Source of the DNA: an uncultured Methanosarcinales archaeon
GTDB lineage: Archaea > Nanobdellota > Nanobdellia > Woesearchaeales > GW2011-AR4
Length of the DNA stretch: 32,000 bases
NCBI GenBank assembly: GCA_964466175.1
Contig: CAYXMT010000004.1
Coordinates: forward strand, 1 to 32,000
Direction of reading: 5' to 3'
In this document: positions 14,427 to 32,000 of the stretch, piece by piece
Layout: every line of letters starts with the position of its first letter
Position numbering within the stretch: position 1 is the stretch's first letter
Program-made: the position numbers and the translations under genes
The notes under the pieces: generated by a model
Database searches by the model: none
Told to the model about the DNA's origin: nothing
What the model saw: the letters and a program-made list of their open reading frames with translations, nothing else

Positions 14427-14455
14427 GATACCACTTTAGTTTTTATTGTTTATAT

Positions 14456-14683: not shown

Positions 14684-14848
14684 TTATATCTCCTCAAAGT
14701 AATGTTACTCCCTTTTTAAACATTTTGATAAAGAGGTCATAGCCTAAACAATTCCCGATATGTTTAAAGATAGTTAAGTATTCCGTACTTCTAAAAGAGG
14801 AGATAATAGCTCCAAGTTATTTCTTGGATTATTAGGAGATAAATAATT

Positions 14849-15331
14849 ATGAATGAACCTATAAACCCCGGACAAGTGCCTATAAATCCCGATCTGGTAA
14901 TTGAAGCGTTTGGTCACTTAGATGAACTAGCAATGGAGAGATGGGAATGGTTGCATCATTAATATTGGGAAATAAGAACAGATTTTCCCTATCTAGGTTC
15001 TAGCGATGCGCAACATATGTTTTTTGGAAGATTGCCGGAAGAAGATAATGTTGTAGGAGCATGTTCTCTAGAAAAAAGAAGTGAAAGTGGTCTGTATGCC
15101 ATAACATACCTGACTCACCCAGACTTTGAAGGAAGAAGAGTAGCAACAACACTAGCTGCTCATGCTGTAAATTTTGCTAAGAAAAAACCAAATATTACGA
15201 CACTTAATGCAGCAGTTAAAGAAGGATCTGTTGATGAAAGGGTTGTTCAAAGGCTGGGTTTTTTGTATGATTGGGATGTTGTTGATGGTGGAAGAAGGAC
15301 AAATATGTACCAATTAGATACAAGTAAGTAA
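14849..15331 (+). pseudogene. GNAT-family N-acetyltransferase interrupted by one in-frame TAA
   Basis: ATG 14849 (preceded by TAGGAGAT) opens a frame that hits TAA at 14960-62 and continues in the same frame to 15331. The joined product is 160 aa, a normal GNAT size. It contains YAITYLTHPDFEGRRVATTLAAHAVNFAKK (motif-A-like) and QRLGF. The track lists only the distal 15017..15331 piece. Confidence 0.5.
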
Positions 15332-15383
15332 AAACCAAAATAAACAAAAAGATAATAAATACAAACTTCTATCTTAACATATT

Positions 15384-15785
15384 ATGAAAACCAATAAGAC
15401 AGAACTAAGAGTTTACTATGCAGACACAGATCATGGCCAAGTCGTTTATTATTCAAACTATCTGAAATGGTTTGAAATTGGAAGAACAGAGATTCTAAGG
15501 CAATCCGGATTCAATTATGCAAAGTTTGCAAAACAAGGCCTTATAGCCCCAGTAGTTGAGGTAAAATGCAATTACAAGGAATCTGCAAAATATGACGATA
15601 TCATAATAATTAAAACAGCCATAGAGAACATAGGCAACAGCAGTATCAAATTTAATTATAAAATCTCAAGAAAAAGCGACAAAAAATTATTGGCTGAAGG
15701 TTATACAGTAAATGTTTTTGTCGACCAAAAAACAAAGAAATCAACTAAAATACCTGAAAATCTAAGAAAAGCATTGAAAAGCTAA
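15384..15785 (+). CDS. Acyl-CoA thioesterase, YbgC/4HBT hotdog family
   Basis: 133 aa. LRVYYADTDHGQVVYYSNYLKWFEIGRTE is the YbgC-type catalytic-Asp N-terminal motif. Confidence 0.8.
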   Translation: MKTNKTELRVYYADTDHGQVVYYSNYLKWFEIGRTEILRQSGFNYAKFAKQGLIAPVVEVKCNYKESAKYDDIIIIKTAIENIGNSSIKFNYKISRKSDKKLLAEGYTVNVFVDQKTKKSTKIPENLRKALKS

Positions 15786-16540
15786 ACAGTAAAAATATCT
15801 CCTTCTATTATTTTCTTACGTTTCCCATTCTTCAACTTCAAAACCAAATTACAATCTTCATCAACACCAACAGCTTTGCCAACATACACTCCAGATAGTG
15901 TCTCAGCCCTTATTTTCTTTCCTAAAGTGCAAGAATATTTTTTCCAGATTTTAATTATCTCATTATATTTTTTATTATTATAATATTTATACAATGAATT
16001 GAATTCTTTTACTATTTCATTGATTATTTTTTTAATATCATATTCTTTATTGGTTTCAAGTGTTAATGAAGTTGCTTTATCAGAAATATCTTTACTAAAT
16101 TTTTTCTGATTTACATTGACACCAATCCCAATCAACGCATAATTATCTTTGGTGGGATTGTGGGGAGGTGGGAGGGAAAAATGCCTTCGGTCAGAGACCG
16201 AATGTTGTTTGTAAACAGTTTCAGTCAAAATGCCGCATATCTTCTTTCCAGAAATCAAAACATCATTAGGCCATTTTACTTTAGAATTTAATTTTATTGT
16301 TTTAGCAACGGCAATAGAAGCAATAAAAGTAAGGTATTTTACCCTCGACAAATCTTTTTCTTTAAGCAATATGGTCATGTACAAGCCGCCTAAAGAAGAA
16401 ACCCATTTTCGTTTAAACCGCCCTTTACCAGAAGTTTGTTTATCTGCAATAACAATTACTTTATCAAAACCTTTCTTAGCTAAGCTTTTGGCTTTAGAGT
16501 TAGTAGAAGAAAGAGTCTTAAAATAAAAAACCTTATTCAT
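15782..16540 (-). CDS. birA: Biotin--[acetyl-CoA-carboxylase] ligase, group I (no HTH)
   Basis: Motifs QTSGKGRFKRKWVSSLGGLYMTI (GRGRxGRxW-type biotin-binding loop), KWPNDVLISGKKICGILTE and IGIGVNVN. The start overlaps the accC stop (ATGAATAA). Confidence 0.88.
   Translation of the reverse strand: MNKVFYFKTLSSTNSKAKSLAKKGFDKVIVIADKQTSGKGRFKRKWVSSLGGLYMTILLKEKDLSRVKYLTFIASIAVAKTIKLNSKVKWPNDVLISGKKICGILTETVYKQHSVSDRRHFSLPPPHNPTKDNYALIGIGVNVNQKKFSKDISDKATSLTLETNKEYDIKKIINEIVKEFNSLYKYYNNKKYNEIIKIWKKYSCTLGKKIRAETLSGVYVGKAVGVDEDCNLVLKLKNGKRKKIIEGDIFTV
16152..16205 (+). other. GC-rich 54-nt in-frame segment inside birA, carrying a G-quadruplex-type motif and a hairpin
   Basis: GGG-N5-GGGG-N4-GGG-N1-GGG at 16155-16177 on the + strand. 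A perfect inverted repeat TTCGGTC-AGA-GACCGAA lies at 16187-16203. Hand count gives 31/54 G+C against AT-rich flanks. On the minus strand it encodes HSVSDRRHFSLPPPHNPT. Confidence 0.6.
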
Positions 16541-18440
16541 TTTGCATTAATTCTTGTCTACCTGACATGACCCACGCATTTGGTTTGTTATTAAGATTAT
16601 TCTTCTTATCCATATACTTGGATACTGCAGTAGTGACCACAATCATTTTCTGGCCGTTGGTTAATTCTTTGCGTTTTTGACCGATGTATTTCTTTACAGA
16701 TTTAAGAATGTCATTTTTCTCTATAAACGCTGTTGTAAATTTCCCCTTGACAAAATTTTTGTTGTGCAAAACAGCCAGATGGAAAGGTATTGTTGTCTTT
16801 ACACCTTCTATAAAATATTCTTTTAGTGCCCTGTTCATCCTGGTTATTGCCTCATGTCTGTCATTTCCATGGCATATTAACAAGGATAATAATGAATCAT
16901 AATCAGGCAGCACTTTATAGCCCTGGTGGCATATGCTGTTAACCCTTATTCCCGGACCTCCAGGAGGAAGATAATTAGTTATTAATCCGATTGAAGGCCT
17001 GAAATCTTCCAAAGGATCTTCTGCATTGACCCTACACTCTATTGCCCATCCATCAAGCTTGATATGGTCCTGGTTAAATGCAAGTTTTGCTCCTGCCGCA
17101 AGCTTAATCTGTTCCTTGACAAGGTCCACTCCAGTGACCATTTCAGTAACTCCGTGTTCAACTTGTATTCTTGTATTCATTTCTATAAAATAGAAATTCT
17201 TGCTCTTGTCCAGCAAAAACTCTACGGTTCCGGCTCCTTCGTACCTTGCAGCTGACACAGCTCGTACAGCAGCGTCTCCCATTTTTTCCCTTAACTCTGC
17301 AGTTATAGCTGGACTAGGGCTTTCCTCAACAAGTTTCTGGTGTTTTCTTTGGATACTGCAATCTCTTTCACCTAAATGAACAACATTGCCATAACGGTCC
17401 GCTAATATCTGGAATTCTATATGCCTGGGCTCTTCAATATATTTCTCCATATACAAAGTTTTGTCTCCAAAAGACAGGAAAGCCTCTGCTCCGGCACTCA
17501 CATAGGCTTTTTCCATCTCTTCTTCCTCCGTAACAATCCTCATCCCTTTTCCGCCTCCGCCGGCTGCAGCCTTGATTATAACAGGAAATCCTAATTTCTT
17601 GGCTATCTTAAACGCATGTTTCCAGTTTTTCAATGCTATTGTAGTTCCTTCTATTACCTGTACCTTAGCCTTAGTCACTGTCCTCTTTGCCATGACCTTG
17701 TCTCCCAAAAGCATGATTGTCTTTGACAAAGGCCCTATAAACTTGATTTGGTTTTTCTCGCATAATTTTGCAAACTTTGCATTCTCTGCCAGAAATCCGT
17801 ATCCAGGATGTATTGCATCAGATTCTGTCTTTTTGGCAATGCTGATTATTTTATTAATATCCAGATAACTTACTCCCGAACCCATGCAGCATGCCTTGTC
17901 TGCAAACTTTACTGACAAGCTGTCTTTATCGTTGCTAGAATAAACCAAAACAGTTTCTATTCCTAGCTCGCGACAAGCCCTAATAACTCTTAGAGCTATT
18001 TCTCCCCTATTGGCTATCAAAACTCTCTTGAATTCCTTCTCCTTAGACAGAATAGTATACTCTTTTTCACTAAAGCTAGAAACGCTTAATCCCTTAGCAA
18101 CCATGTCAATAAATGTCTGGGAAGATTTGCTGCCCACTATTTTCTTCAGCTCTCTTGCATCCAGGCTGGGAATTTTTTTGATTAAGCTTGATGTTATTGT
18201 ATCCCCGAGTTCGGCCAGATTAGCTTTTTTAAACACCTTTTTTCTTTTATCAATTGGAACAATATTGCTCTTAATCAAAGTTTCAACCTCTTCATAAACT
18301 AATGGGGCTGTTTTTTTTATTTTACGAAAGACTTTTTTAAAGGCCTCATAAGAGTGTTCCGCAGGAGTTAGACTCCTATTTAGAGCTGAGACAAATTTCT
18401 CCTTCATTCTGAATGAAATATTATTTTTTTTCTTACCCAT
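16533..18440 (-). CDS. accC: Biotin carboxylase (ATP-grasp) with an N-terminal extension of about 136 aa and a C-terminal tail
   Basis: Core motifs FKRVLIANRGEIALRVIRACRELGIE, KAAAGGGGKGMRIV and EMNTRIQVEHGVTE. The track start 18467 is a TTG. The ATG at 18440 is preceded by AGGAG with a 5-nt spacer, so I prefer it. Confidence 0.9.
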   Translation of the reverse strand: MGKKKNNISFRMKEKFVSALNRSLTPAEHSYEAFKKVFRKIKKTAPLVYEEVETLIKSNIVPIDKRKKVFKKANLAELGDTITSSLIKKIPSLDARELKKIVGSKSSQTFIDMVAKGLSVSSFSEKEYTILSKEKEFKRVLIANRGEIALRVIRACRELGIETVLVYSSNDKDSLSVKFADKACCMGSGVSYLDINKIISIAKKTESDAIHPGYGFLAENAKFAKLCEKNQIKFIGPLSKTIMLLGDKVMAKRTVTKAKVQVIEGTTIALKNWKHAFKIAKKLGFPVIIKAAAGGGGKGMRIVTEEEEMEKAYVSAGAEAFLSFGDKTLYMEKYIEEPRHIEFQILADRYGNVVHLGERDCSIQRKHQKLVEESPSPAITAELREKMGDAAVRAVSAARYEGAGTVEFLLDKSKNFYFIEMNTRIQVEHGVTEMVTGVDLVKEQIKLAAGAKLAFNQDHIKLDGWAIECRVNAEDPLEDFRPSIGLITNYLPPGGPGIRVNSICHQGYKVLPDYDSLLSLLICHGNDRHEAITRMNRALKEYFIEGVKTTIPFHLAVLHNKNFVKGKFTTAFIEKNDILKSVKKYIGQKRKELTNGQKMIVVTTAVSKYMDKKNNLNNKPNAWVMSGRQELMQNE

Positions 18441-18510
18441 TATTACTCCTAATGTATAGGTTTTCAATTTATAAATATTTGCATATATAGAAGGTAGATA
18501 TTACGGATTA

Positions 18511-21327: not shown

Positions 21328-21825
21328 ATGAAATCCATAGATAGTTTTAAGGATAAAAAAGGGCAGATAGGCACAAAGAACATCAAGAAGATTATACCTT
21401 ATGAAAAACCTTTTTTATTCATTGACAAAGTTTTAAGGCTTGACAAAAGGGAAATAGTGGCGATAAAAAACATAAGAAGTGATGAAGATTACTTTAAGGG
21501 CCATTTTAAAGGATTTCCCATTATGCCTGGAGCATTGATTGTAGAAGGTCTTGGACAAGCTGCAACTTTGCTAGTAAGATACAACATAAAGAATCAGGAA
21601 CAAAAAGATGTTTTGGCTTACAAGATCAGGTCTGCCAAATTTTACAGGCCCACTTTTCCAGGCCATACATTAAGGTTTGAAGCTAAGTTGATTTTCATGT
21701 TCAAAAAAATAGCTTTTGTAAACGGCAAGGTTTTCAGAAAAGATAAGATGGTTTCAAAAGTAAAGATGGTGATGGCAATAGTAAATAAGAAAAGCTTTAG
21801 AGGAAGATACAGCGGGAAAAAATAA
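21328..21825 (+). CDS. fabZ: FabZ/FabA-type 3-hydroxyacyl thioester dehydratase (hotdog fold)
   Basis: PFLFIDKVLRLD...DEDYFKGHFKGFPIMPGALIVEGLGQAA carries the FabZ catalytic His (GHF) and Glu (VEGLGQ) motifs. Confidence 0.85.
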   Translation: MKSIDSFKDKKGQIGTKNIKKIIPYEKPFLFIDKVLRLDKREIVAIKNIRSDEDYFKGHFKGFPIMPGALIVEGLGQAATLLVRYNIKNQEQKDVLAYKIRSAKFYRPTFPGHTLRFEAKLIFMFKKIAFVNGKVFRKDKMVSKVKMVMAIVNKKSFRGRYSGKK

Positions 21826-21853: not shown

Positions 21854-22984
21854 ATGTATTACGTAAAAGGCGTAGGAATGACGAAATTTGGTGTTCATAG
21901 TAAAACCAGTCAGGAGTTGTGTTATGAAGCGGTAATGGAAGCATTGGAAGATGCTAATATGCAATTATCAGATATAGATCAGATAATAATCTCCAAAGGA
22001 GATTCATTGCATGATGGGGAAAGGCAAAGATTATTCCAGGGAGTATTGAGCAACATATTAGGATGTGAGGACATACCTATTTTCAGAGTTACAGCAGCAT
22101 GTAGTGGCGGAGGTTCCGCTTTCTGGGATGCTGTGCACTCAGGCAAAAAAAATGTGCTCGTGCTTGGAGTAGAAAAGTTAAGCCCATGCCTTACCAAATA
22201 TTTGACTGATGAGTTTATGATGGCTGCTGAAAGGATTTATGAACAAACTGAAGGTCTTAATTTTCCCGCACAAAATGCCCTTGTTGCGCAGCAGTATATG
22301 ATAAAGTACGGTGCAACATCAGATGACCTGGCATTGATTGCATTAAAAAATCACGAGAATGCGTTCGACAATCCAAAAGCAAAATTTTACAAAAAGAAAG
22401 TTACATTAGACATGATAAAAAAATCTCCAGTAGTTGCCAGTCCGCTGAGATTGTTTGACTGCAGTATATCAGTAGACGGTGCTGCAGCTGCAATAATCAG
22501 TAAGGACAAAACAGACATTAAGATAGCTGGCTCTTCATTATATGCTGGCAGATTATCTACTTTTGAAAGTCCGGACATGTCCACATGGGAAGCTACAGTG
22601 CTCGCTGCAAAAGATGCTTATAATGAAGCAGGTGTGACTCATGAAGATATTGACTTTGTTGAAGTGCATGACGCATTCACTCCTGTAGAGCTCCTGTCTT
22701 ATGAAGACCTGGGATTTGCAAAAAAAGGCCAGGGGCCAAAATTGATAAGAGACGGGACAACAAAAATTAATGGTAGTCTTCCTGTCAACACCTCTGGTGG
22801 ATTAAAAGCCAAGGGTCATCCTGTAAGTGCAACAGGTGTTTCTCAAATTTATGAGATTGTCAGACAGATGAGAGGCCGATGTGATAAGAGGCAGCTGGAC
22901 AGAACAAGGACTGGTCTCGCCCATAATGTAGGGGGAGCAGGCAGCACTGTAACAGTCCATATACTAAAGAATTTAGGTGGTTGA
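21854..22984 (+). CDS. Thiolase-superfamily protein, SCP-x/archaeal DUF35-associated type (paralog 1)
   Basis: Motifs VKGVGMTKFG, VTAACSGGGSAF (nucleophile Cys), VHDAFT, NTSGGLKAKGHPVSATG and NVGGAGST. Confidence 0.85.
   Translation: MYYVKGVGMTKFGVHSKTSQELCYEAVMEALEDANMQLSDIDQIIISKGDSLHDGERQRLFQGVLSNILGCEDIPIFRVTAACSGGGSAFWDAVHSGKKNVLVLGVEKLSPCLTKYLTDEFMMAAERIYEQTEGLNFPAQNALVAQQYMIKYGATSDDLALIALKNHENAFDNPKAKFYKKKVTLDMIKKSPVVASPLRLFDCSISVDGAAAAIISKDKTDIKIAGSSLYAGRLSTFESPDMSTWEATVLAAKDAYNEAGVTHEDIDFVEVHDAFTPVELLSYEDLGFAKKGQGPKLIRDGTTKINGSLPVNTSGGLKAKGHPVSATGVSQIYEIVRQMRGRCDKRQLDRTRTGLAHNVGGAGSTVTVHILKNLGG
22229..22507 (+). repeat. Near-identical block shared by the two thiolase paralogs (copy A; copy B at 24856-25134)
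   Basis: About nine in ten nucleotides are identical by eye over 279 nt, including long perfect runs such as TTAAAAAATCACGAGAATGCGTTCGACAATCCAAAAGCAA. The 5' parts of the two genes are strongly diverged. Confidence 0.9.
22745..22806 (+). repeat. Perfect 62-nt repeat between the thiolase paralogs (second copy at 25372-25433)
   Basis: ATAAGAGACGGGACAACAAAAATTAATGGTAGTCTTCCTGTCAACACCTCTGGTGGATTAAA occurs identically in both genes. Confidence 0.95.
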
Positions 22985-22986
22985 AA

Positions 22987-24453
22987 ATGATTGTAAGATG
23001 GGTTTGTGAAAAAGACAACAGGAAATGGATATATCCTATTAAGAAGTGTTTATACTGCGGGGAGCCTGTAAAAAAACAGGTGGGAAGAAAAACAAAAGTC
23101 ATAGGACTGACAAAAGTAAACATTCCTTCACCTTTGCATCCAATAACACCCTATAATATTATCCTTCTTGAGGATGAGTTTGGCAATCGTATGCCAAAGA
23201 AAACAATGAAGGACTACAAAATTGGAGATGTTTATTCAATTGAAAAGGCAAAAACAGATTCTGCAGTTATAATAACAAAAATAAAATATGATTTAGGAGA
23301 ATCGCTAAAGGAATCCCTTAACCTGTTAAATTCATTTGATATTGAAAAACAGGACAAAGTTCTGATAAAGCCCTGCATCATAGAACCTGCATACCCGTAT
23401 CAAACATCGAATACTTCTCCTAAGCTTTTGGATGAAATTATAAAGATGCTGAAAGACATGGGAGTTTCTGATATAATTGTAGGAGACCAGGCCATGCCTG
23501 GCAATGACACAACAGCTTCTGCAAAAAAATCCGGTATTCTTGATGTGTGCAAAAAAAATGATATTCCGTTAGTGGACCTTCGAAAATCGCAATACATTGA
23601 AAAAACTGAGGATGGAATGAAGTTTAGCATCGCAAAAGAAATTATGGAGCGCAAAGTCATCAATGTGCCTGTAATGAAAACGAATTCTCAATTAGGAGTT
23701 TCCGGAGCAATGGAAAATATGCTGAGAGTTGTTGACGAAAATACTCAAATGGAGATGTTTGCAGTAGATATTGAAAAAACCCTGCCAAAGCTGATAAAAG
23801 CACTCCCGAAGTTTGTGACAATAGGTGATGCTACTATAGGTATGCATGCTCAGGGCCCTACCTTACTGGGAGAGCCTGCTTTCATGAACATGCTGTTCAT
23901 AAGCAAAGATCCTGTTGCTTTGGACAGTGCATTTTCCGAAGTAGGTATGCTTCCAACTCCAGAGTACATAAAAGAAGCAACTGGAATCAATGAATATGAT
24001 GCTTATGTAAAGAAATTAGAAATAGTTGGTGATGAATTGGAAGCCGCTAGATATCACCTTAAAGTTCCGGATAAAACAGCAAGTGCGCACCCCAGAATAA
24101 AGCTCATTGATGCTAAATCAAACCCATTAGTATTTTACACAGCATTAAAAGCAAGTTCAAAACTGGTTGGGTTGCCAGGTCATGAGATAAATATAGCAAT
24201 GGGAAAATTTTTAACAGAAGAAATGGTAAATGGAAAGAAAAGAATAATAGCATATGGAACAGACGCCATAAATAAGCTAAAAGAACTGAATATAACCCCC
24301 ATAGCAGAGGTTCCGGAAGATATGGGAGACATAGAAAAATTAACACTACTAAAAAGCATCCTTGAAAACCCGGACAAAAAAAGCGTAAGTGTAAAGGACA
24401 AAATGAAATCAAAACTTGCAGGGCTTGGAGCTAAGATTAAAGGTGCATTCTGA
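22987..24453 (+). CDS. DUF35 (zinc-ribbon + OB fold) fused to a DUF362-like domain and an unassigned C-terminal region
   Basis: The N-terminus has VCEKD...CLYCGEP followed by the OB-like GRKTKVIGLTKVNIPSPLHPITPYNIILLEDEFGN...IGDVY. The middle has DKVLIKPC, IIVGDQA, VINVPVMKTNSQLGVSGAMEN and IGDATIGMHAQGPTLLGEP...ISKDPVALDS (DUF362 pattern). The track start 22981 is a TTG. The ATG at 22987 lies 2 nt after the thiolase-1 stop. Confidence 0.7.
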   Translation: MIVRWVCEKDNRKWIYPIKKCLYCGEPVKKQVGRKTKVIGLTKVNIPSPLHPITPYNIILLEDEFGNRMPKKTMKDYKIGDVYSIEKAKTDSAVIITKIKYDLGESLKESLNLLNSFDIEKQDKVLIKPCIIEPAYPYQTSNTSPKLLDEIIKMLKDMGVSDIIVGDQAMPGNDTTASAKKSGILDVCKKNDIPLVDLRKSQYIEKTEDGMKFSIAKEIMERKVINVPVMKTNSQLGVSGAMENMLRVVDENTQMEMFAVDIEKTLPKLIKALPKFVTIGDATIGMHAQGPTLLGEPAFMNMLFISKDPVALDSAFSEVGMLPTPEYIKEATGINEYDAYVKKLEIVGDELEAARYHLKVPDKTASAHPRIKLIDAKSNPLVFYTALKASSKLVGLPGHEINIAMGKFLTEEMVNGKKRIIAYGTDAINKLKELNITPIAEVPEDMGDIEKLTLLKSILENPDKKSVSVKDKMKSKLAGLGAKIKGAF

Positions 24454-24459: not shown

Positions 24460-25608
24460 ATGGTTTCTATGAAAGTTTACATCAAAGGCGTAGGTATGAC
24501 AAAGTTTGGTGTAGATAGAAAAAGCTCTCATGAGAGGATATGTGAAGTCATTGGTGAATGCCTTAAATCAACAGATATGAATTTTGACGACATAGATGTC
24601 ATATTTGCATCGAATTCTGAATCAGAAAGGAACGAGGAAAGGCAGAAACACCAGGGTCCTATGCTAAGTACACTCTTCCAGAGGGAAATGCCTATACTTA
24701 ATGTGCCTGCAGGATGTGCTGGCGGAGGTGTTGCTTTGTGGAATTCCATCAACTATCTCAGATCTTCAGATTGCAAAAACATAATGGTCATTGGATATGA
24801 TAACATAGTATCATTAACCTCAGAGATTATTACAGACGAAATACTTATGGGCAGTGAGCGTATATGTGAACAGACTGAAGGGCTTAATTTCCCTGCACAA
24901 AATGCCCTTGTTGCGCAGCAGTATATGATGAAGTACGGTGCAACATCAGATGACCTTGCATTAATTGCTTTAAAAAATCACGAGAATGCGTTCGACAATC
25001 CAAAAGCAATGTTCTACAAAAAGAAAGTTACATTAGATATGATAAAAAAATCTCCTGTGGTTGCCAGTCCGCTAAGATTGTTTGACTGCAGTATATCTGT
25101 AAATGGTGCTGCAGCTGCAATAATCAGTAAAGATCCGGGAAATATTGAGATTATTGGCTCAGGAATGTGCACAACCAGTCTGTCTCCAATTGAGAGGAAA
25201 GATATGACTTCAATGAGTTCTACAATAAAGGCTGCAAAGACTGCTTATGAGCAGGCAGGAATAAAACCTGAAGACTTGGATATAGCAGAACTGCATGACG
25301 CATTCACTCCATTAGAGCTATTATCTTATGAAGACCTTGGATTTGCAAAGAAAGGTCATGGAGCAGAGTTAATAAGAGACGGGACAACAAAAATTAATGG
25401 TAGTCTTCCTGTCAACACCTCTGGTGGATTAAAGGCCAAGGGCCATCCTATCAGCCCTACCGGGCTAGCCCAGATTTATGAGATTTCAAAACAAATGAAA
25501 AATGAATGTGGTAAAAGGCAGATAAATAAGCCGAAATATGGTCTTGCGCAGAATGTTGGTGGTGTAGGCACAATGGCTGCTGTGCATATCCTAAAGAATC
25601 TTAATTGA
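24460..25608 (+). CDS. Thiolase-superfamily protein, SCP-x/archaeal DUF35-associated type (paralog 2)
   Basis: Motifs IKGVGMTKFG, VPAGCAGGGVAL (nucleophile Cys), LHDAFT, NTSGGLKAKGHPISPTG and NVGGVGTM. Confidence 0.85.
   Translation: MVSMKVYIKGVGMTKFGVDRKSSHERICEVIGECLKSTDMNFDDIDVIFASNSESERNEERQKHQGPMLSTLFQREMPILNVPAGCAGGGVALWNSINYLRSSDCKNIMVIGYDNIVSLTSEIITDEILMGSERICEQTEGLNFPAQNALVAQQYMMKYGATSDDLALIALKNHENAFDNPKAMFYKKKVTLDMIKKSPVVASPLRLFDCSISVNGAAAAIISKDPGNIEIIGSGMCTTSLSPIERKDMTSMSSTIKAAKTAYEQAGIKPEDLDIAELHDAFTPLELLSYEDLGFAKKGHGAELIRDGTTKINGSLPVNTSGGLKAKGHPISPTGLAQIYEISKQMKNECGKRQINKPKYGLAQNVGGVGTMAAVHILKNLN
24856..25134 (+). repeat. Copy B of the near-identical thiolase block
   Basis: See copy A at 22229-22507. 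Confidence 0.9.
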
Positions 25609-26362
25609 TTTTTTTATCCTTTAGAAATTTCTTTAATATCTCTTTGTTCTCTTTGGTTCTTGAACATTTAACATAAGACTGAACTTCAAAATCATCCTGC
25701 AGATCTTTAAGATAATCTTTATTCACTGATTTTTTTGTAAGCTCCAGCGCTTTTGCCGGCTTTTTTGCTATCCCGGATGTTAAGTCATTCAAAAAAGAAT
25801 CAATCTTGTTCTCAGAAACTAAAAAATCTACAAGCCCCCATTCTAAAGCAGTTTTACTGTCTATTGTAGCTCCTGTAAACAGCATATATTTAGCCTTCCC
25901 AAAACCTATCAGTCTTGGCAATCTTTTTGTGCCTCCTAAAGGGGCTACTGTGCCAAGCGAAGTTTCCGGATGTATAAATTTTGCATTAGGCAGCGCTATT
26001 CTCATATCACAGGCCATTGCCAGTTCATTTCCACCGCCCACAGCAATTCCGTTTATAACGGCTATAAAAATCTGGGGCATTGTTTCAATCTTGGAAAAAA
26101 TGTTTTGCACAGATTTTAATTGTTTTTTAGCTTCATTGATATCCATATCCCCTACTTCCTGTTCCCATGAGATATTTCCTCCTGAGCAGAATGCTTTTCC
26201 TTTGCCTTTTATCACAACTACATTCAAATTACTGGACTTTATTCTCTCCAAAATTCTATCCAGCTCTTTTATCATCTCAAAATCAAAAGAGTTCAGCTTT
26301 TCAGGATTATTCAAAAATATTGTTCCTGTCTTGCCATTGGCATTAAAGGTTATTTTATTCAT
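25601..26362 (-). CDS. Enoyl-CoA hydratase/isomerase (crotonase) family protein
   Basis: Motifs VVVIKGKGKAFCSGGNI, AVINGIAVGGGNELAMACDMRIA and FIHPETSLGTVAPLGGTKRLPRLIG, giving the oxyanion hole and both catalytic Glu positions. Confidence 0.85.
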   Translation of the reverse strand: MNKITFNANGKTGTIFLNNPEKLNSFDFEMIKELDRILERIKSSNLNVVVIKGKGKAFCSGGNISWEQEVGDMDINEAKKQLKSVQNIFSKIETMPQIFIAVINGIAVGGGNELAMACDMRIALPNAKFIHPETSLGTVAPLGGTKRLPRLIGFGKAKYMLFTGATIDSKTALEWGLVDFLVSENKIDSFLNDLTSGIAKKPAKALELTKKSVNKDYLKDLQDDFEVQSYVKCSRTKENKEILKKFLKDKKIN

Positions 26363-26382: not shown

Positions 26383-27801
26383 TTATAGTTTTGAATTTAA
26401 TATATGGATAGCCTTGCCCATGGCTGCTTCTGCTGCTTCCATTAAGCTCTCGCTTAAAGTAGGATGAGGATGTATTGTCAAAGCTAAATCCTCTACAGAA
26501 GCATTCATCCTTATTGCCAAAGCAGCCTCGCTTATAAGGTCTGATACATCATGCCCCACAATCTGCACCCCAACTATCTTTTTATCATTTTCATTAGAAA
26601 TTATTTTCACAAATCCTTGTGTACTGCCTCTTGTCATGGCTCTGCTTGATGCGCTAAATGGAAATTTTCCTGCCTTTATATTCATTCCCTTGGCCTTTGC
26701 TTCTTCTTCGCTTAAGCCAACAGCAGCAATTTCCGGATCAGTAAAAATAACCGCAGGTACGACATCGCCCTCATAACTGCCTTTATCGCCAGCAATTGAT
26801 TCTGCAGCAAACCTGCCTTGTGATGAAGCTTTATGAGCCAGCATGGGCCCTATAGAAACATCTCCTATCGCATATATATTTTTATCATTAGTCTTCAGAT
26901 ATTTATCCACTTTAATAAATCCATCACTATCCAATTCTACTTTAGTGTTTTCAATACCTAAATTTTTTGTATTGGGCTTTCTGCCTACGGCAACCAGAAT
27001 CTTATCTGCATCTAAGGATATTCTGCCTTTTTCTTTTGAATTTACAATTATTTTCTTACCTTCAATTTTATCTGCCTTTGTATCAAGATGCACTTCAACA
27101 TTGATATTTTCTAGGTTCCTCTGCAGCACATCAACAACGCTTTTGTCAAATCCGGGTAAAATCTGCTCCTGCATCTCAACAACACAAACCTTGCTTCCGA
27201 GTTTTGCATAAACTGTTCCTAACTCTAATCCTATATAGCCTGCGCCTACAACAACCAGGTTCTTTGGGATTTTATCCAAATACAAAGCTTCTCTTGAACT
27301 AATAATTTTCTTACCGTCAAATTTAAAGTTTGGCAATTCAATTGGTTCTGAGCCTGATGAAATTATCGCCTTTTCAAAATCGACATAAGAAACACTTTTT
27401 CCATTGCTTATTTTTAACCTGTTGGAATTTTCAAAAACCACGCTTCCCTTAACAACATCAACATTATTTTTCTTGCAAAGAAATTCAATCCCAGTTATTA
27501 GCTTCGAAACTACCTTGTCCTTCCATTCCTGCATCTTCTTAAAATCCATCGTAACTTTATCTACCTTAATCCCCATATCAGAAGATTTCTTGATTTTATC
27601 CAGAAATTCAGATGCATAAATCATTGCTTTTGATGGGATGCAGCCGTAATTAAGGCATATTCCGCCAAGTTTATCTTCATCAATCAAAACAACCTTTTTG
27701 TTCAGCTGACCAAGCCTTATAGCAGCCACATATCCTCCTGGACCTGCACCTATTACAACAACTTCCGCTTTCGTGGTATTACTTGAATTCATCTCATACA
27801 T
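26383..27801 (-). CDS. lpdA: Dihydrolipoyl dehydrogenase (E3, class I pyridine nucleotide-disulfide oxidoreductase)
   Basis: Motifs VVVIGAGPGGYVAA, GGICLNYGCIPSK (redox disulfide), VVVGAGYIGLE and the C-terminal HPHPTLSE His-Glu dyad. Confidence 0.88.
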   Translation of the reverse strand: MYEMNSSNTTKAEVVVIGAGPGGYVAAIRLGQLNKKVVLIDEDKLGGICLNYGCIPSKAMIYASEFLDKIKKSSDMGIKVDKVTMDFKKMQEWKDKVVSKLITGIEFLCKKNNVDVVKGSVVFENSNRLKISNGKSVSYVDFEKAIISSGSEPIELPNFKFDGKKIISSREALYLDKIPKNLVVVGAGYIGLELGTVYAKLGSKVCVVEMQEQILPGFDKSVVDVLQRNLENINVEVHLDTKADKIEGKKIIVNSKEKGRISLDADKILVAVGRKPNTKNLGIENTKVELDSDGFIKVDKYLKTNDKNIYAIGDVSIGPMLAHKASSQGRFAAESIAGDKGSYEGDVVPAVIFTDPEIAAVGLSEEEAKAKGMNIKAGKFPFSASSRAMTRGSTQGFVKIISNENDKKIVGVQIVGHDVSDLISEAALAIRMNASVEDLALTIHPHPTLSESLMEAAEAAMGKAIHILNSKL

Positions 27802-27891: not shown

Positions 27892-28875
27892 ATGGTCATG
27901 AGTATAACTACACAGCAGCCTAAATCTTGGAAGCCTGACAGGCCTGCTTCAAAAGGTGCAACAACATTTCATAATGCAGTTATTGATGCTTCATGGAATA
28001 ATGAATGTCTAGACCAGCTTATTTCTATTGCTAAGCCTAATATCCATGAAAATAGTGTTGTGGTAGACTTTGGAGCTGGTACAGGGACATCATCCGTTAG
28101 AATCCTGGAAAAGCTAAAAATTAAGATAAATCTATGGCTGGTTGACAACTCGCCGGCATGGCTGGGAAAAGCATATGAATTTTTAGGTTCTCGCCCTAAT
28201 GTTAATTTTTTTATTCTGGAGAAAAAAGACAATAGATATACTACTTTATCTGAGACAGTAGGAAAAGGGACTGTAGATAATGTAATGTGTGCAAACACTG
28301 TTCACCTGATACCTAACCTAAAAGAAGCATTTAAGGGTATTGCTGAAGCATTGAAGTCAAAAGGTACTTTTGTTTTTAATACAGGGAATATCCTTAGGGA
28401 TGGAAGGAAAAAAGGGGTTTTGATGCTTGATTCCACAGTATACCGGGTCCATGATATAGCCATAGATATAATTCGTAAAAATTCTAAATTTAAGAAGTAT
28501 AGGAAAAACCTTGATGAAAATATTAAAGCTTATACTCCTTTAAGGAATTTTATTTTTCCTAATCCCAGACCACTTCAGGAATACCTAACTGCCTTAAAAG
28601 ATGCAGGATTCAAGTATATGGAACCTTATTACAAATGCATCCGGTTAAAGTATAGTGATTGGATTAACTTTCTAAGAATTAAGCGGCTGCAGGCAGGAAT
28701 TCTGCCTGAAATCGGAGGTAAAAATCCTAATCCGGATCAGGAAAACGATAGAGATGCCTTGATTATCATGGCTGCACAAAAATTGTTCAAAGAATTAGAA
28801 AAGCTTAATCCATTTGCAGATGATAAAAGTTATCTTGGGGAATGGGTCTACATATCTGCAACAAAATCTAATTGA
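27892..28875 (+). CDS. Class I SAM-dependent methyltransferase with a long C-terminal extension
   Basis: VVDFGAGTGTSSVRILE (motif I), a WLVDNS acidic loop, and a VMCANTVHLIP / KGTFVF post-motif pattern. 327 aa. The target is unknown. Confidence 0.7.
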   Translation: MVMSITTQQPKSWKPDRPASKGATTFHNAVIDASWNNECLDQLISIAKPNIHENSVVVDFGAGTGTSSVRILEKLKIKINLWLVDNSPAWLGKAYEFLGSRPNVNFFILEKKDNRYTTLSETVGKGTVDNVMCANTVHLIPNLKEAFKGIAEALKSKGTFVFNTGNILRDGRKKGVLMLDSTVYRVHDIAIDIIRKNSKFKKYRKNLDENIKAYTPLRNFIFPNPRPLQEYLTALKDAGFKYMEPYYKCIRLKYSDWINFLRIKRLQAGILPEIGGKNPNPDQENDRDALIIMAAQKLFKELEKLNPFADDKSYLGEWVYISATKSN

Positions 28876-28883
28876 TTATAAAA

Positions 28884-29618
28884 ATGTTAAAAGGAAAAAC
28901 AGCATTAGTCACTGGAGGTTCGACAGGCATTGGAAGGTCTACTGCATTTGAACTTGCAAAAAATGGGGCAAATATTATCATTAACTATCTTGCCAATGAT
29001 AAAGAAGCTAATGATGTTGCTGAACAAATCAAGAAATTAGGAGTGGAATGTATAGCGGTTAAAGCTAATGTTACAAATTTTGATGAAGTTAAGAAAATGG
29101 CTGAAACTGCACAAAAACAATTCAAAAATGTTGATATTCTTATCAACAATGCAGGTATTGTTAAGGATAGAACATTAAAAAACATGACTAAAGATGAATG
29201 GGATGCTGTCATAAACACTAATCTCAACAGCGTTTTCTATGTAACCAAGGCCATTTTGCCCCTAATGGGAGAAGGAGGAAGAATCATAAGCGTATCTTCC
29301 ATTATAGGCCAGTATGGGAACTTTGGCCAGTCTAATTATGCAGCTTCTAAAGCAGGCATCATAGGTTTCACAAAGTCTCTGGCAAAAGAGCTTGGCAAAA
29401 AAAAGATAACAGTAAATGCTGTTGCTCCTGGTTTTGTGAAAACCACAATAACAAAAGATATACCTTTTATAAGAAAAAAGATGATAAGTTATATGACTCC
29501 ATTGAAAGATGAAGCCGAACCAGAAGATATTGCCAATGTTATTGCTTTCCTGGCATCAGATAAAGCCAGATACATTACAGGAACCGTAATAAATGTTGAC
29601 GGCGGCCTAGCTTTCTGA
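28884..29618 (+). CDS. fabG: 3-oxoacyl thioester reductase, FabG-type classical SDR
   Basis: Motifs LKGKTALVTGGSTGIGRS, NNAGI, SSIIGQYGNFGQSNYAASKAG (Ser-Tyr-Lys triad) and VNAVAPGF. The track start 28872 is a TTG, so I prefer the ATG at 28884. Confidence 0.88.
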   Translation: MLKGKTALVTGGSTGIGRSTAFELAKNGANIIINYLANDKEANDVAEQIKKLGVECIAVKANVTNFDEVKKMAETAQKQFKNVDILINNAGIVKDRTLKNMTKDEWDAVINTNLNSVFYVTKAILPLMGEGGRIISVSSIIGQYGNFGQSNYAASKAGIIGFTKSLAKELGKKKITVNAVAPGFVKTTITKDIPFIRKKMISYMTPLKDEAEPEDIANVIAFLASDKARYITGTVINVDGGLAF

Positions 29619-31400: not shown

Positions 31401-32000
31401 TTATTCTATCTTCAGCAAATCAGATATAGCTTCCTTTAAATCTTTGTTCTTATAAAGCACTTCATAAGCCTGTTCTGTCAGAGGCATGTAAAGTTTGTTT
31501 TTTTTGCTGAATTCATAAACAGCCTTTGTTGTCTGTATGCCTTCTGCTACCCTGCCTTTCATTTCTTTTTTGATATTATCAAGTGTTTTCCCTTTTGCAA
31601 TTCTCTCGCCAGCTAACCTATTTCTGCTGTGCTTGCTTGTGCATGTTGCCACTAAGTCGCCTATTCCTGCAAGACCATAAAAGGTTGATCTTTTGGCACC
31701 TAGAAATTTGCCATAAGTGGACATTTCCATCAACCCTATTGTTATAATGCTGGCTTTTGCATTATCCCCATATCCTAAACCGTCGCATACACCAGTTGCT
31801 ATTGCTGCTATATTCTTCAGAGCCCCGCAAACTTCAACGCCAATTATATCATTATGCGTAAAAACCCTAAAATAGCTTGTATGGAATATTTTCTTGATTT
31901 CATTAAGGCAATCAGTATTCTCAGATGCTATAACTGTTGCCGTCGGCATCTTTCTGCTGACTTCTTCAGCATGATTTGGGCCAGACAACGACACTATTGA
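31401..32000 (-). CDS. gpsA: NAD(P)H-dependent sn-glycerol-3-phosphate dehydrogenase, partial (N-terminus beyond the window end)
   Basis: Motifs SGPNHAEEV, VEVCGALKNIAAIATGVCDGLGYGDNAKASIITIGLMEM, GDLVATCTS..SRN and AEGIQT match GpsA. The frame stays open upstream to position 32000. The track's M at 31994 is a GTG inside the ORF. Confidence 0.85.
   Translation of the reverse strand, partial: SIVSLSGPNHAEEVSRKMPTATVIASENTDCLNEIKKIFHTSYFRVFTHNDIIGVEVCGALKNIAAIATGVCDGLGYGDNAKASIITIGLMEMSTYGKFLGAKRSTFYGLAGIGDLVATCTSKHSRNRLAGERIAKGKTLDNIKKEMKGRVAEGIQTTKAVYEFSKKNKLYMPLTEQAYEVLYKNKDLKEAISDLLKIE

What the first reader, a model, noticed from the sequence alone, without database searches (positions are those of the whole stretch)
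22987..24453. DUF35 scaffold fused to a DUF362-like domain, nested between two thiolases
DUF35 (zinc ribbon plus OB fold) proteins are known partners of SCP-x-type thiolases. Examples are the archaeal thiolase/HMGCS complex, BbsA/BbsB in benzylsuccinate beta-oxidation, and the Ltp2-ChsH2 DUF35 aldolase in cholesterol side-chain cleavage. Here the DUF35 module (about 22993-23292) has only three Cys in its ribbon. It is fused to a domain of about 200 aa with the DUF362 pattern (23350-23946) and a further 168-aa region with no assignment (23947-24450). DUF362 has no established function. In this copy the positions I recall as a conserved His and Lys-Asn read KTNSQ...MEN, so it may be divergent. 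Fusion and tight coupling to two condensing-enzyme paralogs give a rare functional context for DUF362. It may be the missing activity of the cluster or an extended scaffold that holds a hetero-thiolase assembly.
Basis: partly seen in the sequence, partly recalled or inferred. Interest (0 to 1): 0.7.

Follow-up and report, generated by a model that had tools for sequence, protein, structure and literature searches.

The report
Thiolase-docking adaptor fused to relic enzyme
This archaeal gene joins a small module that docks onto thiolases to a lactate-racemase-like domain that has lost its usual active-site residues. It sits in a conserved operon that builds acyl chains on CoA, so it most likely holds a thiolase-based fatty-acid-type assembly together and is not the operon's missing enzyme.

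Summary
The ORF is real (22987-24453, 488 aa) and lies 2 and 6 nt from two thiolase genes. Pfam confirms DUF362 (E 5e-33). Pfam does not detect DUF35. Even so, AlphaFold models of the N-terminal 100 aa match only solved DUF35 proteins (BbsA, PhlB, ChsH2-DUF35, 6ESQ).

The "unassigned" C-terminus is the normal C-terminal domain of DUF362 proteins, and the whole body resembles LarA. Ordinary DUF362 proteins keep a His-Lys-His set spaced as in LarA's cofactor site, plus four Cys. This family reads Asn-Glu-Phe there, and the window copy has none of the four Cys.

About 60 Woesearchaeota/Nanoarchaeia species genomes carry the operon FabZ-like, thiolase, fusion, (SDR), thiolase, next to acyl-CoA carboxylase and GpsA. 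Related fusions occur in Patescibacteria (CPR). The same adaptor is fused to 3-hydroxyacyl-CoA dehydrogenase elsewhere. Enoyl reduction is encoded separately in sister lineages (Bcd/Etf or FabK-like).

Best reading: a thiolase-complex scaffold carrying a relic enzyme. A remodelled active enzyme is not excluded. It is a new variant of a known kind, of moderate interest.

The parts
21328..21825 (+). FabZ/FabA-like (R)-3-hydroxyacyl dehydratase, first gene of the operon
   Evidence: Pfam FabA E 2e-20. NCBIfam FabZ 110 bits, just under the cut-off of 113. It lies upstream of thiolase A in nearly all related loci.
21854..22984 (+). Thiolase A (archaeal/SCP-x type, 376 aa)
   Evidence: Pfam Thiolase_C_1 E 3e-48. 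PDB 7YVY E 6e-74 and 6ESQ_A E 5e-55. The motifs AACSGG, FDCS, HDAF and GHP are kept in 42 orthologues.
22987..24453 (+). The fusion protein (488 aa plus stop): DUF35-type adaptor joined to a degenerate LarA-like DUF362 body
   Evidence: More than 120 full-length homologues at 49-100% identity.
22987..23061 (+). Zinc-ribbon part of the adaptor (aa 1-25). Ligand positions are C7, D10, C21 and C24
   Evidence: The pattern is CDCC in this subclade, CCCC in deeper members and absent in a few. Weak zf-ChsH2 (PF12172) hits occur in relatives P0136 and P0145, E about 0.015.
23062..23286 (+). OB-fold part of the adaptor (aa 26-100). This is the most conserved part of the protein
   Evidence: Five strands in the AF2 models. 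The top 18 Foldseek hits of the N-terminal model are all DUF35-family chains. Mean pairwise identity is 0.70, against 0.59 for DUF362 and 0.48 for the C-terminal region.
23359..23934 (+). DUF362 domain (aa 125-316), in the same Pfam clan as the LarA N-terminal domain. N233, E243 and F258 stand where canonical DUF362 has His, Lys and His
   Evidence: Pfam E 4.7e-33. Foldseek hits to LarA-like 9Q3J, 9Q3K and 7S91, E 9e-6 to 1e-4. Clan CL0471 is stated in PMC11770544. Motif comparison.
23935..24450 (+). C-terminal alpha/beta domain plus a helical tail (aa 317-488). It is alignable with the C-terminal domain of ordinary DUF362 proteins, but here it lacks their four conserved Cys (CxxC...GxCA...GCPP)
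   Evidence: The family profile matches stand-alone DUF362 proteins out to positions 430-457. Alignment A2. Three of the four Cys survive in the deeper subclade and none in the window copy.
24460..25608 (+). Thiolase B (382 aa), a paralogue of thiolase A
   Evidence: 63% aa identity to thiolase A. Catalytic motifs are kept in 41 orthologues. A 300-nt stretch is 88% identical to thiolase A at the DNA level.
25601..26362 (-). Crotonase-type enoyl-CoA hydratase
   Evidence: Pfam ECH_1 E 2e-49. Found only in some window-type loci.
26383..27801 (-). Dihydrolipoyl dehydrogenase-type flavoprotein
   Evidence: TIGR01350 565 bits, above the cut-off of 409. Present in the window-type loci.
27892..28875 (+). 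SAM-dependent methyltransferase. In other lineages it is fused to the following SDR
   Evidence: Pfam Methyltransf_31/12/25. The fused MT-SDR form is seen in L001 and L003.
28872..29618 (+). FabG-like 3-oxoacyl reductase (SDR)
   Evidence: TIGR01830 293 bits against a cut-off of 297.75. Acetoacetyl-CoA reductase model 248 bits.
11922..13842 (+). Acyl-CoA carboxylase carboxyltransferase (11922-13451) and biotin carrier protein (13453-13842)
   Evidence: Pfam Carboxyl_trans E 7e-183 and Biotin_lipoyl. Syntenic in many related loci.
13839..18467 (-). BioY (13839-14426), biotin ligase BirA (15782-16540) and biotin carboxylase (16533-18467)
   Evidence: BirA and the biotin carboxylase lie next to the FabZ-like gene in most related loci.
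31401..31994 (-). Bacterial-type NAD-dependent glycerol-3-phosphate dehydrogenase (GpsA). The gene probably runs past the window end
   Evidence: Pfam NAD_Gly3P_dh_C E 2e-58. Syntenic in related loci.

Best explanation
The protein is the adaptor subunit of a thiolase-based, CoA-dependent acyl-chain-building complex of Woesearchaeota (DPANN archaea).

Shown:
- It has a zinc-ribbon plus OB module of the DUF35 fold.
- This module is joined to a two-domain body of the DUF362/LarA superfamily.
- The gene is translationally coupled to two thiolase paralogues that both look catalytically intact.
- The operon also holds a FabZ-like dehydratase and a FabG-like reductase. It sits next to acyl-CoA carboxylase, biotin uptake and ligation genes, and GpsA.

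Inferred:
- The DUF35 module docks onto thiolase dimers. Solved DUF35 proteins do this in the archaeal thiolase/HMG-CoA synthase complex, BbsAB, PhlABC/MucABC, Ltp2-ChsH2 and the Sulfolobus fatty-acid synthase complex.
- The adaptor originally carried a working DUF362 enzyme. 'Intact' fusions behind thiolases still exist.
- In the Woesearchaeal and Patescibacteria operon lineages, the residues aligned with LarA's cofactor-tethering Lys, catalytic His and Ni-ligand His were replaced (fully so in the window's family). So were the four Cys of the C-terminal domain.
- The body is therefore now most likely a non-catalytic platform, possibly still binding a ligand. It would enlarge the scaffold and help hold thiolase A, thiolase B and probably the dehydratase and reductase together for channelling.
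- The pathway most likely runs acetyl-CoA (perhaps also malonyl-CoA) to 3-oxoacyl-CoA, then 3-hydroxyacyl-CoA, then enoyl-CoA. Enoyl reduction would come from an enzyme encoded elsewhere in this lineage.
For: Architecture:
- Pfam DUF362 and a confident AF2 model, pLDDT 85.8.
- Foldseek gives DUF35 chains for the N-terminus and LarA-like enzymes for the rest.
- The C-terminal region is homologous to that of ordinary DUF362 proteins.

Docking role:
- The adaptor is the most conserved part of the protein.
- In every lineage examined where upstream sequence is available, the fusion follows a thiolase of the same subfamily.
- The same adaptor, at 29-43% identity, is fused to 3-hydroxyacyl-CoA dehydrogenase directly behind a thiolase in Nitrospirota, Cloacimonadota and an archaeon.
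- DUF35 mediates a thiolase/reductase/dehydratase complex in Sulfolobus (bioRxiv 10.1101/2024.07.05.601840).

Relic body:
- Canonical invariants are KPN, KTH, KN, a later His and 4 Cys.
- The window family reads KPC/S, KTN, EN and F/Y, with 0-3 Cys.
- The spacing His-10-Lys-15-His matches LarA1 H174-10-K184-16-H200.
- Weak Pfam Lar_N hits align to exactly this stretch.
- Woesearchaeal and Patescibacteria short forms lack the C-terminal domain altogether.

Enoyl reductase elsewhere:
- ACAD+EtfAB sit in six Woesearchaeal short-form clusters.
- A FabZ-NMO fusion sits in the Patescibacteria clusters.

Operon conservation: about 60 species genomes.
Against: - No binding or activity data exist. Docking is inferred from fold and gene order.
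- DUF35 is not detected by Pfam, and the sequence-profile link is borderline at E 0.04.
- The remodelled site is itself strongly conserved. K231, Q235, E243, N244, D281, G290-P291 and G295-x-P297-A298-F299 are invariant in 36 sequences down to 49% identity. That fits a retained ligand-binding or catalytic role as well as a structural one.
- No enoyl reductase is encoded in this window or within 8 kb in the long-form loci. A missing step therefore does exist here.
- The mapping onto LarA residues rests on spacing, clan membership and weak HMM hits, not on a residue-level structural superposition.
Confidence: 0.55

Rival explanations
1. The DUF362 body is still an enzyme, but with changed chemistry. 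It would supply a step of the pathway that is not otherwise encoded in this lineage's operon. Candidates are enoyl-CoA reduction or a 3-hydroxyacyl-CoA epimerase/isomerase step linking the R-specific FabZ-like dehydratase and the S-specific crotonase. The DUF35 module would tether it to the thiolases for channelling.
For: - The adaptor is elsewhere fused to a bona fide enzyme, 3-hydroxyacyl-CoA dehydrogenase, and to motif-intact DUF362.
- The substituted positions are themselves invariant, along with the surrounding loops: E243, N244, K231, Q235, D281 and GQGP...GEPAF.
- No enoyl reductase lies in the window or in the flanks of long-form loci.
- LarA-family chemistry is hydride transfer (PMC11770544).
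Against: - All three residues aligned with LarA's His/Lys/His set are replaced, and all four Cys are gone in the window copy.
- The C-terminal domain is dispensable in Woesearchaeal and Patescibacteria short forms.
- Lineages with the same Lys-to-Glu change encode separate enoyl reductases in the operon.
- Conservation falls from the adaptor to the body to the C-terminal region, 0.70 > 0.59 > 0.48.
Confidence: 0.25
2. The relic pocket is a sensor. It would bind an acyl-CoA, CoA or nucleotide and regulate the attached thiolases, giving allosteric control of entry into acyl-chain synthesis, with no catalytic or purely structural role.
For: Pocket-lining loops are conserved while catalytic-type residues are lost. 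This pattern is common in pseudoenzymes that keep ligand binding (general knowledge).
Against: There is no direct evidence, and sequence alone cannot separate this from the scaffold reading. The short forms lack half of the body.
Confidence: 0.12
3. The N-terminal module is not a thiolase partner. It would be a generic zinc-ribbon/OB nucleic-acid-binding domain, like the DUF35-fold translation recovery factor Trf, and the gene order would be incidental.
For: Trf (6HTJ) is among the best fold and sequence matches. Pfam does not call DUF35.
Against: Adjacency to a thiolase holds across archaea, Patescibacteria, Nitrospirota and Cloacimonadota, and across three different fusion partners. Coupling is tight at 2-6 nt. 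Most fold matches are thiolase-bound DUF35 subunits.
Confidence: 0.05

Closest known systems
DUF35 scaffold subunits of thiolase complexes: archaeal acetoacetyl-CoA thiolase/HMG-CoA synthase/DUF35 (PDB 6ESQ/6ET9), BbsA-BbsB (7PXP), PhlABC (5M3K) and MucABC (9VBT)
   Same: The same zinc-ribbon plus OB fold. The gene is encoded next to, and here between, thiolase-superfamily genes. The partner thiolases are close relatives of 6ESQ_A and 7PXP_C.
   Different: Those DUF35 proteins are free-standing proteins of about 130 aa that Pfam recognises. Here the module is about 100 aa, escapes Pfam, has a CDCC ribbon, and carries a 390-aa LarA-superfamily body. Both partners are SCP-x-type thiolases, not a thiolase plus HMGCS or a KAS III-like protein.
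Sulfolobus acidocaldarius archaeal fatty-acid synthase complex (Saci_1121 thiolase / Saci_1120 DUF35 + SDR reductase + MaoC dehydratase, with a separate MDR enoyl-CoA reductase); bioRxiv 10.1101/2024.07.05.601840
   Same: ACP-independent logic. A thiolase/DUF35 core recruits the reductase and the dehydratase, and the enoyl reductase is not part of the core. The window operon has a thiolase, a DUF35-type adaptor, a FabG-like SDR and a dehydratase.
   Different: The dehydratase is FabZ-like, not MaoC. There are two thiolase paralogues. The adaptor is fused to a DUF362 body. Acyl-CoA carboxylase and GpsA are neighbours. No MDR reductase was found. The paper's text contains no mention of DPANN or Woesearchaeota.
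ChsH2(DUF35)-Ltp2 and Shy(DUF35)-Sal steroid side-chain aldolases (PDB 6OK1, 9MYR)
   Same: A precedent for a DUF35 domain fused to a pathway enzyme (a MaoC-type hydratase), so that the enzyme is tethered to a thiolase-fold protein. These are fold matches to the window module.
   Different: In ChsH2 the DUF35 domain is C-terminal and the partner is an aldolase that has lost thiolase chemistry. Here the module is N-terminal, the partners look like active thiolases, and it is the fused body that looks degenerate.
LarA superfamily of nickel-pincer-nucleotide 2-hydroxyacid racemases/epimerases (PDB 5HUQ, 7S91, 9Q3J), and its sister family DUF362 (PF04015, clan CL0471)
   Same: Best fold matches for aa ~120-488. 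DUF362 membership by HMM. Canonical DUF362 keeps His-Lys-His at LarA-like spacing.
   Different: The window family has Asn, Glu and Phe at those three positions and lacks the 4-Cys motif of canonical DUF362. No function is established for any DUF362 protein. No known LarA homologue is fused to DUF35.

Membership tests
DUF35 (Pfam PF12172 zf-ChsH2/DUF35_N + PF01796 OB domain) | Match to the family HMMs above the gathering score | tested here: not met
   There is no Pfam hit for aa 1-125 even at E<=10. Relatives P0136 and P0145 hit zf-ChsH2 only at E about 0.015, 15 bits against a cut-off of 23. The module profile hits PDB 6ESQ_E 'Pfam DUF35' at E 0.039, which is borderline.
DUF35 (Pfam PF12172 zf-ChsH2/DUF35_N + PF01796 OB domain) | Four-Cys rubredoxin-like zinc ribbon at the N-terminus | tested here: inconclusive
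   The family pattern is CxxC...CxxC (CCCC) in deeper members. The window copy has C7, D10, C21, C24, and a few members have no Cys. Asp could still ligate zinc. Metal content is untested.
DUF35 (Pfam PF12172 zf-ChsH2/DUF35_N + PF01796 OB domain) | Ribbon followed by an OB fold that superposes on solved DUF35 proteins | tested here: met
   The top 18 Foldseek PDB hits of the N-terminal model are all DUF35-family chains, TMq 0.48-0.57, probability 1.0. The full model matches the same set.
DUF35 (Pfam PF12172 zf-ChsH2/DUF35_N + PF01796 OB domain) | Encoded next to an SCP-x/archaeal-type thiolase-fold gene | tested here: met
   The gaps are 2 nt and 6 nt. Of the loci held, 45 have an intact thiolase ORF immediately upstream and 45 have one downstream.
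DUF35 (Pfam PF12172 zf-ChsH2/DUF35_N + PF01796 OB domain) | Physical complex with the thiolase | not testable with these tools
   This needs co-purification or a co-structure. Only single-chain structure prediction was available here.
DUF362 (PF04015) | Match to the family HMM above the gathering score | tested here: met
   E 4.7e-33, 115.4 bits against a cut-off of 24, aa 125-316 covering model positions 1-198 of 200.
DUF362 (PF04015) | Invariant residues of ordinary members: KPN, KTH, KN, a later His, DG, and CxxC...C...CPP in the C-terminal domain | tested here: not met
   The invariants come from 15 stand-alone members. The window has KPC, KTN, EN and MF, keeps D281, and has none of the four Cys.
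LarA superfamily (nickel-pincer-nucleotide racemases/epimerases) | LarA-like fold / same clan | tested here: met
   Foldseek hits 9Q3J, 9Q3K and 7S91 at E 9e-6 to 1e-4, with alignments of up to 471 columns but high rmsd. DUF362 and DUF2088 share clan CL0471 (PMC11770544).
LarA superfamily (nickel-pincer-nucleotide racemases/epimerases) | Catalytic His (H174), cofactor-tethering Lys (K184) and Ni-ligand His (H200), LarA1 numbering | tested here: not met
   The residue roles come from PMC11770544. By spacing and by weak Lar_N alignments, the equivalents are N233, E243 and F258. The mapping is inferred, not taken from a superposition.
LarA superfamily (nickel-pincer-nucleotide racemases/epimerases) | larB/larC/larE cofactor-synthesis genes in the genome | not tested
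   Only 32 kb of this genome and +/-8 kb flanks of relatives were available. No such genes were seen there.
Archaeal ACP-independent fatty-acid synthase (Sulfolobus type) | Thiolase/DUF35 pair plus 3-oxoacyl-CoA reductase and 3-hydroxyacyl-CoA dehydratase | tested here: met
   A thiolase (two copies), a DUF35-fold adaptor, a FabG-like SDR and a FabZ-like dehydratase share one conserved neighbourhood. The dehydratase belongs to a different family from the Sulfolobus MaoC enzyme.
Archaeal ACP-independent fatty-acid synthase (Sulfolobus type) | Dedicated enoyl-CoA reductase | tested here: not met
   No MDR, FabI/K/L/V or acyl-CoA dehydrogenase family domain (Pfam) lies in the 32-kb window. tblastn with FabZ-NMO, NMO, ACAD and Etf queries finds none in the flanks of long-form loci. 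Sister lineages do have ACAD/EtfAB or FabZ-NMO in the cluster.

The most novel reading that the evidence does not exclude
The DUF362 body is not a relic. It would be a previously unrecognised kind of acyl-CoA oxidoreductase or isomerase tethered to thiolases. 'Intact' adaptor-DUF362 fusions and the parallel adaptor-3-hydroxyacyl-CoA-dehydrogenase fusions would then point to canonical DUF362 as a LarA-like, possibly nickel-pincer- and [4Fe-4S]-dependent, 3-oxoacyl/3-hydroxyacyl-CoA enzyme. The Woesearchaeal version would be a re-tooled descendant that supplies the step missing from this lineage's ACP-independent fatty-acid operon, for example enoyl-CoA reduction. That would give DUF362 its first function and define a new archaeal fatty-acid synthase component.
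Probability: 0.15. Interest if true: 0.8.

Novelty: new variant of a known kind. Interest (0 to 1): 0.55.

Why it matters
DUF35 adaptors are emerging as the organisers of thiolase-based complexes in archaeal isoprenoid and fatty-acid synthesis. This family shows the adaptor being used as a portable docking module, fused to DUF362 or to 3-hydroxyacyl-CoA dehydrogenase.

It places a large, conserved variant of the adaptor in an operon that probably lets DPANN archaea build acyl chains. That operon lies next to bacterial-type glycerol-3-phosphate dehydrogenase, which bears on the archaeal/bacterial 'lipid divide'.

It also gives DUF362, a large family with no known function and about 4,900 clusters at 50% identity, its first consistent functional neighbourhood. 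In addition it provides a natural series from intact to degenerate forms that can guide experiments.

The practical value is a defined set of three or four proteins to co-express and test.

Tried and rejected
- A Pfam scan of the isolated N- and C-terminal pieces gave nothing useful.
- A sequence-profile search of the full family against PDB gave no hit at E<=10.
- A canonical DUF362 profile against PDB gave only non-significant NuoB/PSST hits on the GxCA...GCPP motif, E about 1.5-2.6, and no LarA hit. A residue-level alignment to LarA could therefore not be obtained.
The scan was rerun with A1.
- A word-indexed homologue search with the adaptor profile returned only 24 fragments without Pfam labels. 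It did not bridge to annotated DUF35 proteins.
- The idea that one thiolase paralogue is a catalytically dead partner, like a chain-length factor, was rejected. Both keep the Cys/Cys/His/His motifs in 41-42 orthologues.
- The idea that the DUF362 body is the enoyl reductase was downgraded, because sister lineages encode ACAD/EtfAB or FabZ-NMO beside similarly altered fusions.
- A butyrate-fermentation reading of the operon was considered. It is not excluded for the POR/Bcd/Etf-containing short-form clusters. For the window lineage, the conserved acyl-CoA carboxylase, biotin genes and GpsA nearby favour synthesis.
Full report
**1. What is in the sequence**

The finding covers a single ORF on the + strand, 22981/22987-24453. 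More than 120 full-length homologues begin MI(I/V)RW, so ATG 22987 is the start and the product has 488 aa. The upstream gene (21854-22984) ends in TGA two bases before this ATG, and AGGTGG lies 7-12 nt upstream. The downstream gene starts at 24460, six bases after the stop.

Both neighbours are archaeal/SCP-x-type thiolases. They hit Pfam Thiolase_C_1 at E 3e-48 and 2e-45, and ThlA hits PDB 7YVY at 6e-74, 6ESQ_A at 5e-55 and 7PXP_C (BbsB) at 3e-50. They are 63% identical to each other. Both keep the nucleophile Cys, the FDCS Cys and the HDAF and GHP His motifs in 42 and 41 orthologues. Neither looks like a dead partner.

**2. Domain check**

Pfam confirms DUF362 for aa 125-316 (E 4.7e-33, 115 bits against a cut-off of 24). 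No model matches aa 1-125 or 317-488, even at E<=10. A family profile finds nothing in PDB by sequence.

An AlphaFold2 model built on 36 homologues is confident (pLDDT 85.8, pTM 0.86). Foldseek against PDB splits it into two parts:
- The N-terminal ~100 aa match DUF35 proteins: BbsA 7PXP, PhlB 5M3K, ChsH2-DUF35 6OK1, the DUF35 subunit of 6ESQ, MucB 9VBT, Shy-DUF35 9MYR, 3IRB and Trf 6HTJ. E runs from 6e-4 to 1.5e-2, all at probability 1.0.
- The remainder matches LarA-like nickel-pincer enzymes (9Q3J, 9Q3K, malate racemase 7S91; E 9e-6 to 1e-4). Some alignments span 355-471 columns, that is, both the DUF362 domain and the C-terminal region.

A separate model of aa 1-104 (pLDDT 75) gives DUF35-family chains as its 18 best hits, TMq 0.48-0.57. 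Only after these come ribosomal zinc-ribbon proteins. At sequence level, a profile of the module reaches 6ESQ_E ('Pfam DUF35') only at E 0.039. Two relatives touch zf-ChsH2 at E about 0.015. DUF35 is therefore supported by fold and context, not by HMM.

DUF362 and the LarA N-terminal domain (DUF2088) belong to one Pfam clan, CL0471 (PMC11770544).

**3. The 'unassigned' C-terminus and the divergent motifs**

A profile search of 1.84 billion cluster representatives found 4,917 relatives. Stand-alone DUF362 proteins of about 380-420 aa match the profile from about position 90 out to 430-457. The last third of the window protein is therefore the ordinary C-terminal domain of DUF362 proteins, which the Pfam model simply does not cover.

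Fifteen such proteins share these invariant features: K-P-N, K-T-H, K-N ten residues after that His, a further His fifteen residues later, D-G, and four Cys (CxxC ... GxCA ... GCPP).

In LarA1 the catalytic His174, the cofactor-tethering Lys184 and the Ni-ligand His200 are spaced 10 and 16 residues apart (PMC11770544). Weak Pfam Lar_N hits on three relatives align to exactly the KTH...KN stretch. I therefore infer that canonical DUF362 keeps a LarA-like His/Lys/His site. This rests on spacing and weak alignments, not on a superposition.

| Feature | Canonical DUF362 | Window family |
|---|---|---|
| First motif | K-P-N | KP(C/S) |
| His of K-T-H | His | Asn (KTN) |
| Lys of K-N | Lys | Glu (EN) |
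| Later His | His | Phe or Tyr |
| GCPP motif | present | absent |
| Four Cys | present | none in the window subclade; three in a deeper subclade |

The zinc ribbon is CDCC here, CCCC in deeper members, and absent in a few. Conservation falls along the protein. Mean pairwise identity is 0.70 for the adaptor, 0.59 for DUF362 and 0.48 for the C-terminal region.

**4. Distribution and neighbours**

The exact protein and its close relatives come from Woesearchaeota/Nanoarchaeota metagenome-assembled genomes. A scan of one genome per GTDB species returned 70 loci, about 60 of them from Woesearchaeota/Nanoarchaeia. Several of these carry a 'Methanosarcinales' record title that is probably a deposit default.

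A tblastn map of all loci shows a conserved operon: FabZ-like, thiolase, fusion, (SDR), thiolase. It is usually followed by a family-III CoA-transferase and/or a methyltransferase-SDR pair or fusion, then TRAM, LigT, rpS2 and GpsA. It is usually preceded by biotin carboxylase, BirA, BioY, carboxyltransferase and BCCP.

The window has this layout, plus a crotonase and a dihydrolipoyl-dehydrogenase-type flavoprotein on the opposite strand. Its SDR scores 293 bits on the FabG model, just under the cut-off of 297.75. Castelle et al. noted that some Woesearchaeota carry bacterial fatty-acid-synthesis genes, including the G3P dehydrogenase, but did not describe this protein (PMC8204110). A full-text search for DUF362 found no functional study.

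**5. Other forms of the fusion**

(a) 'Intact' fusions of 464-489 aa (P0128, P0132, P0134-P0136) keep every canonical DUF362 motif and the four Cys. Wherever the upstream sequence is present, a thiolase precedes them directly. Their neighbours include GNAT acetyltransferases, NeuB, a radical-SAM enzyme and glycosyltransferases.

(b) Woesearchaeal short forms of about 360-380 aa lack the C-terminal domain and keep KPN and KTH but have EN. Six of their clusters carry an acyl-CoA dehydrogenase with EtfB/EtfA. Four of those six also carry a 2-oxoacid:ferredoxin oxidoreductase.

(c) Patescibacteria forms of about 340 aa are the most degenerate. Their cluster reads thiolase, fusion, SDR, FabZ-NMO fusion, NMO, biotin carboxylase.

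(d) The same adaptor, at 29-43% identity over about 80 aa, is fused to 3-hydroxyacyl-CoA dehydrogenase directly after a thiolase. This occurs in Nitrospirota, Cloacimonadota and an unclassified archaeon.

**6. Interpretation**

The adaptor behaves as a portable thiolase-docking module that carries different passengers. This matches what solved DUF35 proteins do. It also matches the Sulfolobus result that a thiolase/DUF35 core recruits the reductase and dehydratase of an ACP-independent fatty-acid synthase (bioRxiv 10.1101/2024.07.05.601840).

In the Woesearchaeal and Patescibacteria operons the passenger has lost the residues that define its relatives' active site. In some lineages it has lost half of its body. 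Enoyl reduction is supplied by unrelated enzymes in sister lineages.

The most economical reading is a scaffold carrying a relic enzyme, confidence about 0.55. It would hold two active thiolases, and probably the dehydratase and reductase, together.

The main rival, at about 0.25, is a re-tooled enzyme. Several points support it:
- The remodelled site and its loops are strictly conserved.
- No enoyl reductase was found in the window or in the flanks of the long-form loci.
- This adaptor otherwise carries working enzymes.

Neither binding nor activity can be tested with the tools used here.

**7. Novelty**

The parts are known kinds: the DUF35 scaffold, the DUF362/LarA superfamily and archaeal-type thiolases. 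The combination, its degenerate state and its conserved place in a DPANN acyl-chain operon are, as far as the searched literature shows, undescribed.

I rate it a new variant of a known kind, interest 0.55.

Noticed in passing
L076:6654-7772, L077:950-2050, L078:7995-9089, L079:7992-9089: The same zinc-ribbon/OB adaptor (29-43% identical to window aa 1-90) is fused to a complete 3-hydroxyacyl-CoA dehydrogenase (3HCDH_N + 3HCDH) directly after a thiolase gene. This occurs in an unclassified archaeon, a Cloacimonadota MAG and two Nitrospirota MAGs. Pfam does not recognise the adaptor in these proteins either.
   Followed up: partly
Proteins P0143, P0146, P0174, P0188, P0203, P0265 (alignment A3); no window coordinates: Ordinary DUF362 proteins keep His, Lys and His at LarA-like spacing (10 and 15 residues, against 10 and 16 in LarA1). 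They also keep an invariant C-terminal CxxC...GxCA...GCPP motif that weakly resembles the [4Fe-4S]-binding motif of NuoB/PSST (E about 1.5-2.6, not significant). This hints that DUF362 enzymes combine a LarA-like site with an Fe-S cluster.
   Followed up: partly
L007, L081, L082/L083 (genes around P0128, P0136, P0132): Motif-intact adaptor-DUF362 fusions sit behind a thiolase in clusters with GNAT acetyltransferases, NeuB, a radical-SAM enzyme or a FAD-oxidase/CCG pair. L080 (P0135) starts at the fusion gene, so its upstream gene is unseen; a hexapeptide transferase and a glycosyltransferase follow it. These look like sugar- or surface-modification clusters, not fatty-acid operons.
   Followed up: no
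L053, L055, L058, L060, L061, L069: Woesearchaeal clusters with the short fusion carry an acyl-CoA dehydrogenase plus EtfB/EtfA. Four of them also carry the three subunits of a 2-oxoacid:ferredoxin oxidoreductase. That is a full reverse-beta-oxidation or butyrate-type gene set around the thiolase-adaptor pair.
   Followed up: partly
L008:2423-3892 and L072 (Saccharibacteria MAG): Patescibacteria (CPR) clusters encode a FabZ-like dehydratase fused to an NMO/FabK-like enoyl reductase. It sits beside a thiolase, the short degenerate fusion, an SDR and a biotin carboxylase. This suggests a thiolase-based acyl-chain pathway shared between CPR bacteria and DPANN archaea.
   Followed up: partly
window 22205-22504 vs 24832-25131: The two thiolase paralogues share a 300-nt stretch at 88% DNA identity, against 75% in the next 300 nt. 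The encoded segments (about aa 119-215 of thiolase A) are almost identical. This suggests gene conversion between the paralogues.
   Followed up: partly
L001, L005, L011, L032, L033, L034, L038, L050 (thiolase A, about 6900-8000 in each locus): In eight groundwater MAG loci, thiolase A is broken by frame changes and is missing 15-40 aa. In most of them a break falls within the region where the two paralogues are most alike at the DNA level. This could be assembly collapse between paralogues or real decay. It was not resolved.
   Followed up: partly
window 16533-18467 (-): The biotin carboxylase has an N-terminal extension of about 145 aa before the Biotin_carb_N domain, and the extension has no Pfam match. 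tblastn shows the extension is shared by the orthologues in related loci.
   Followed up: no
window 27892-29618; L001:12422-14143; L003:12438-14141: The methyltransferase and the FabG-like SDR are separate, overlapping genes in the window. They form one fused 567-573-aa protein in other Woesearchaeal lineages. The role of a methyltransferase in this operon is unexplained.
   Followed up: no
L010, L016, L020, L021 and many others (record titles): Many of the related genomes are deposited as 'uncultured Methanosarcinales archaeon' (binchicken co-assemblies). Their loci are syntenic with, and up to 75% identical to, Woesearchaeota loci. One partial locus is labelled Nitrospinota (L070). These labels probably reflect deposit defaults or mis-binning.
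   Followed up: no
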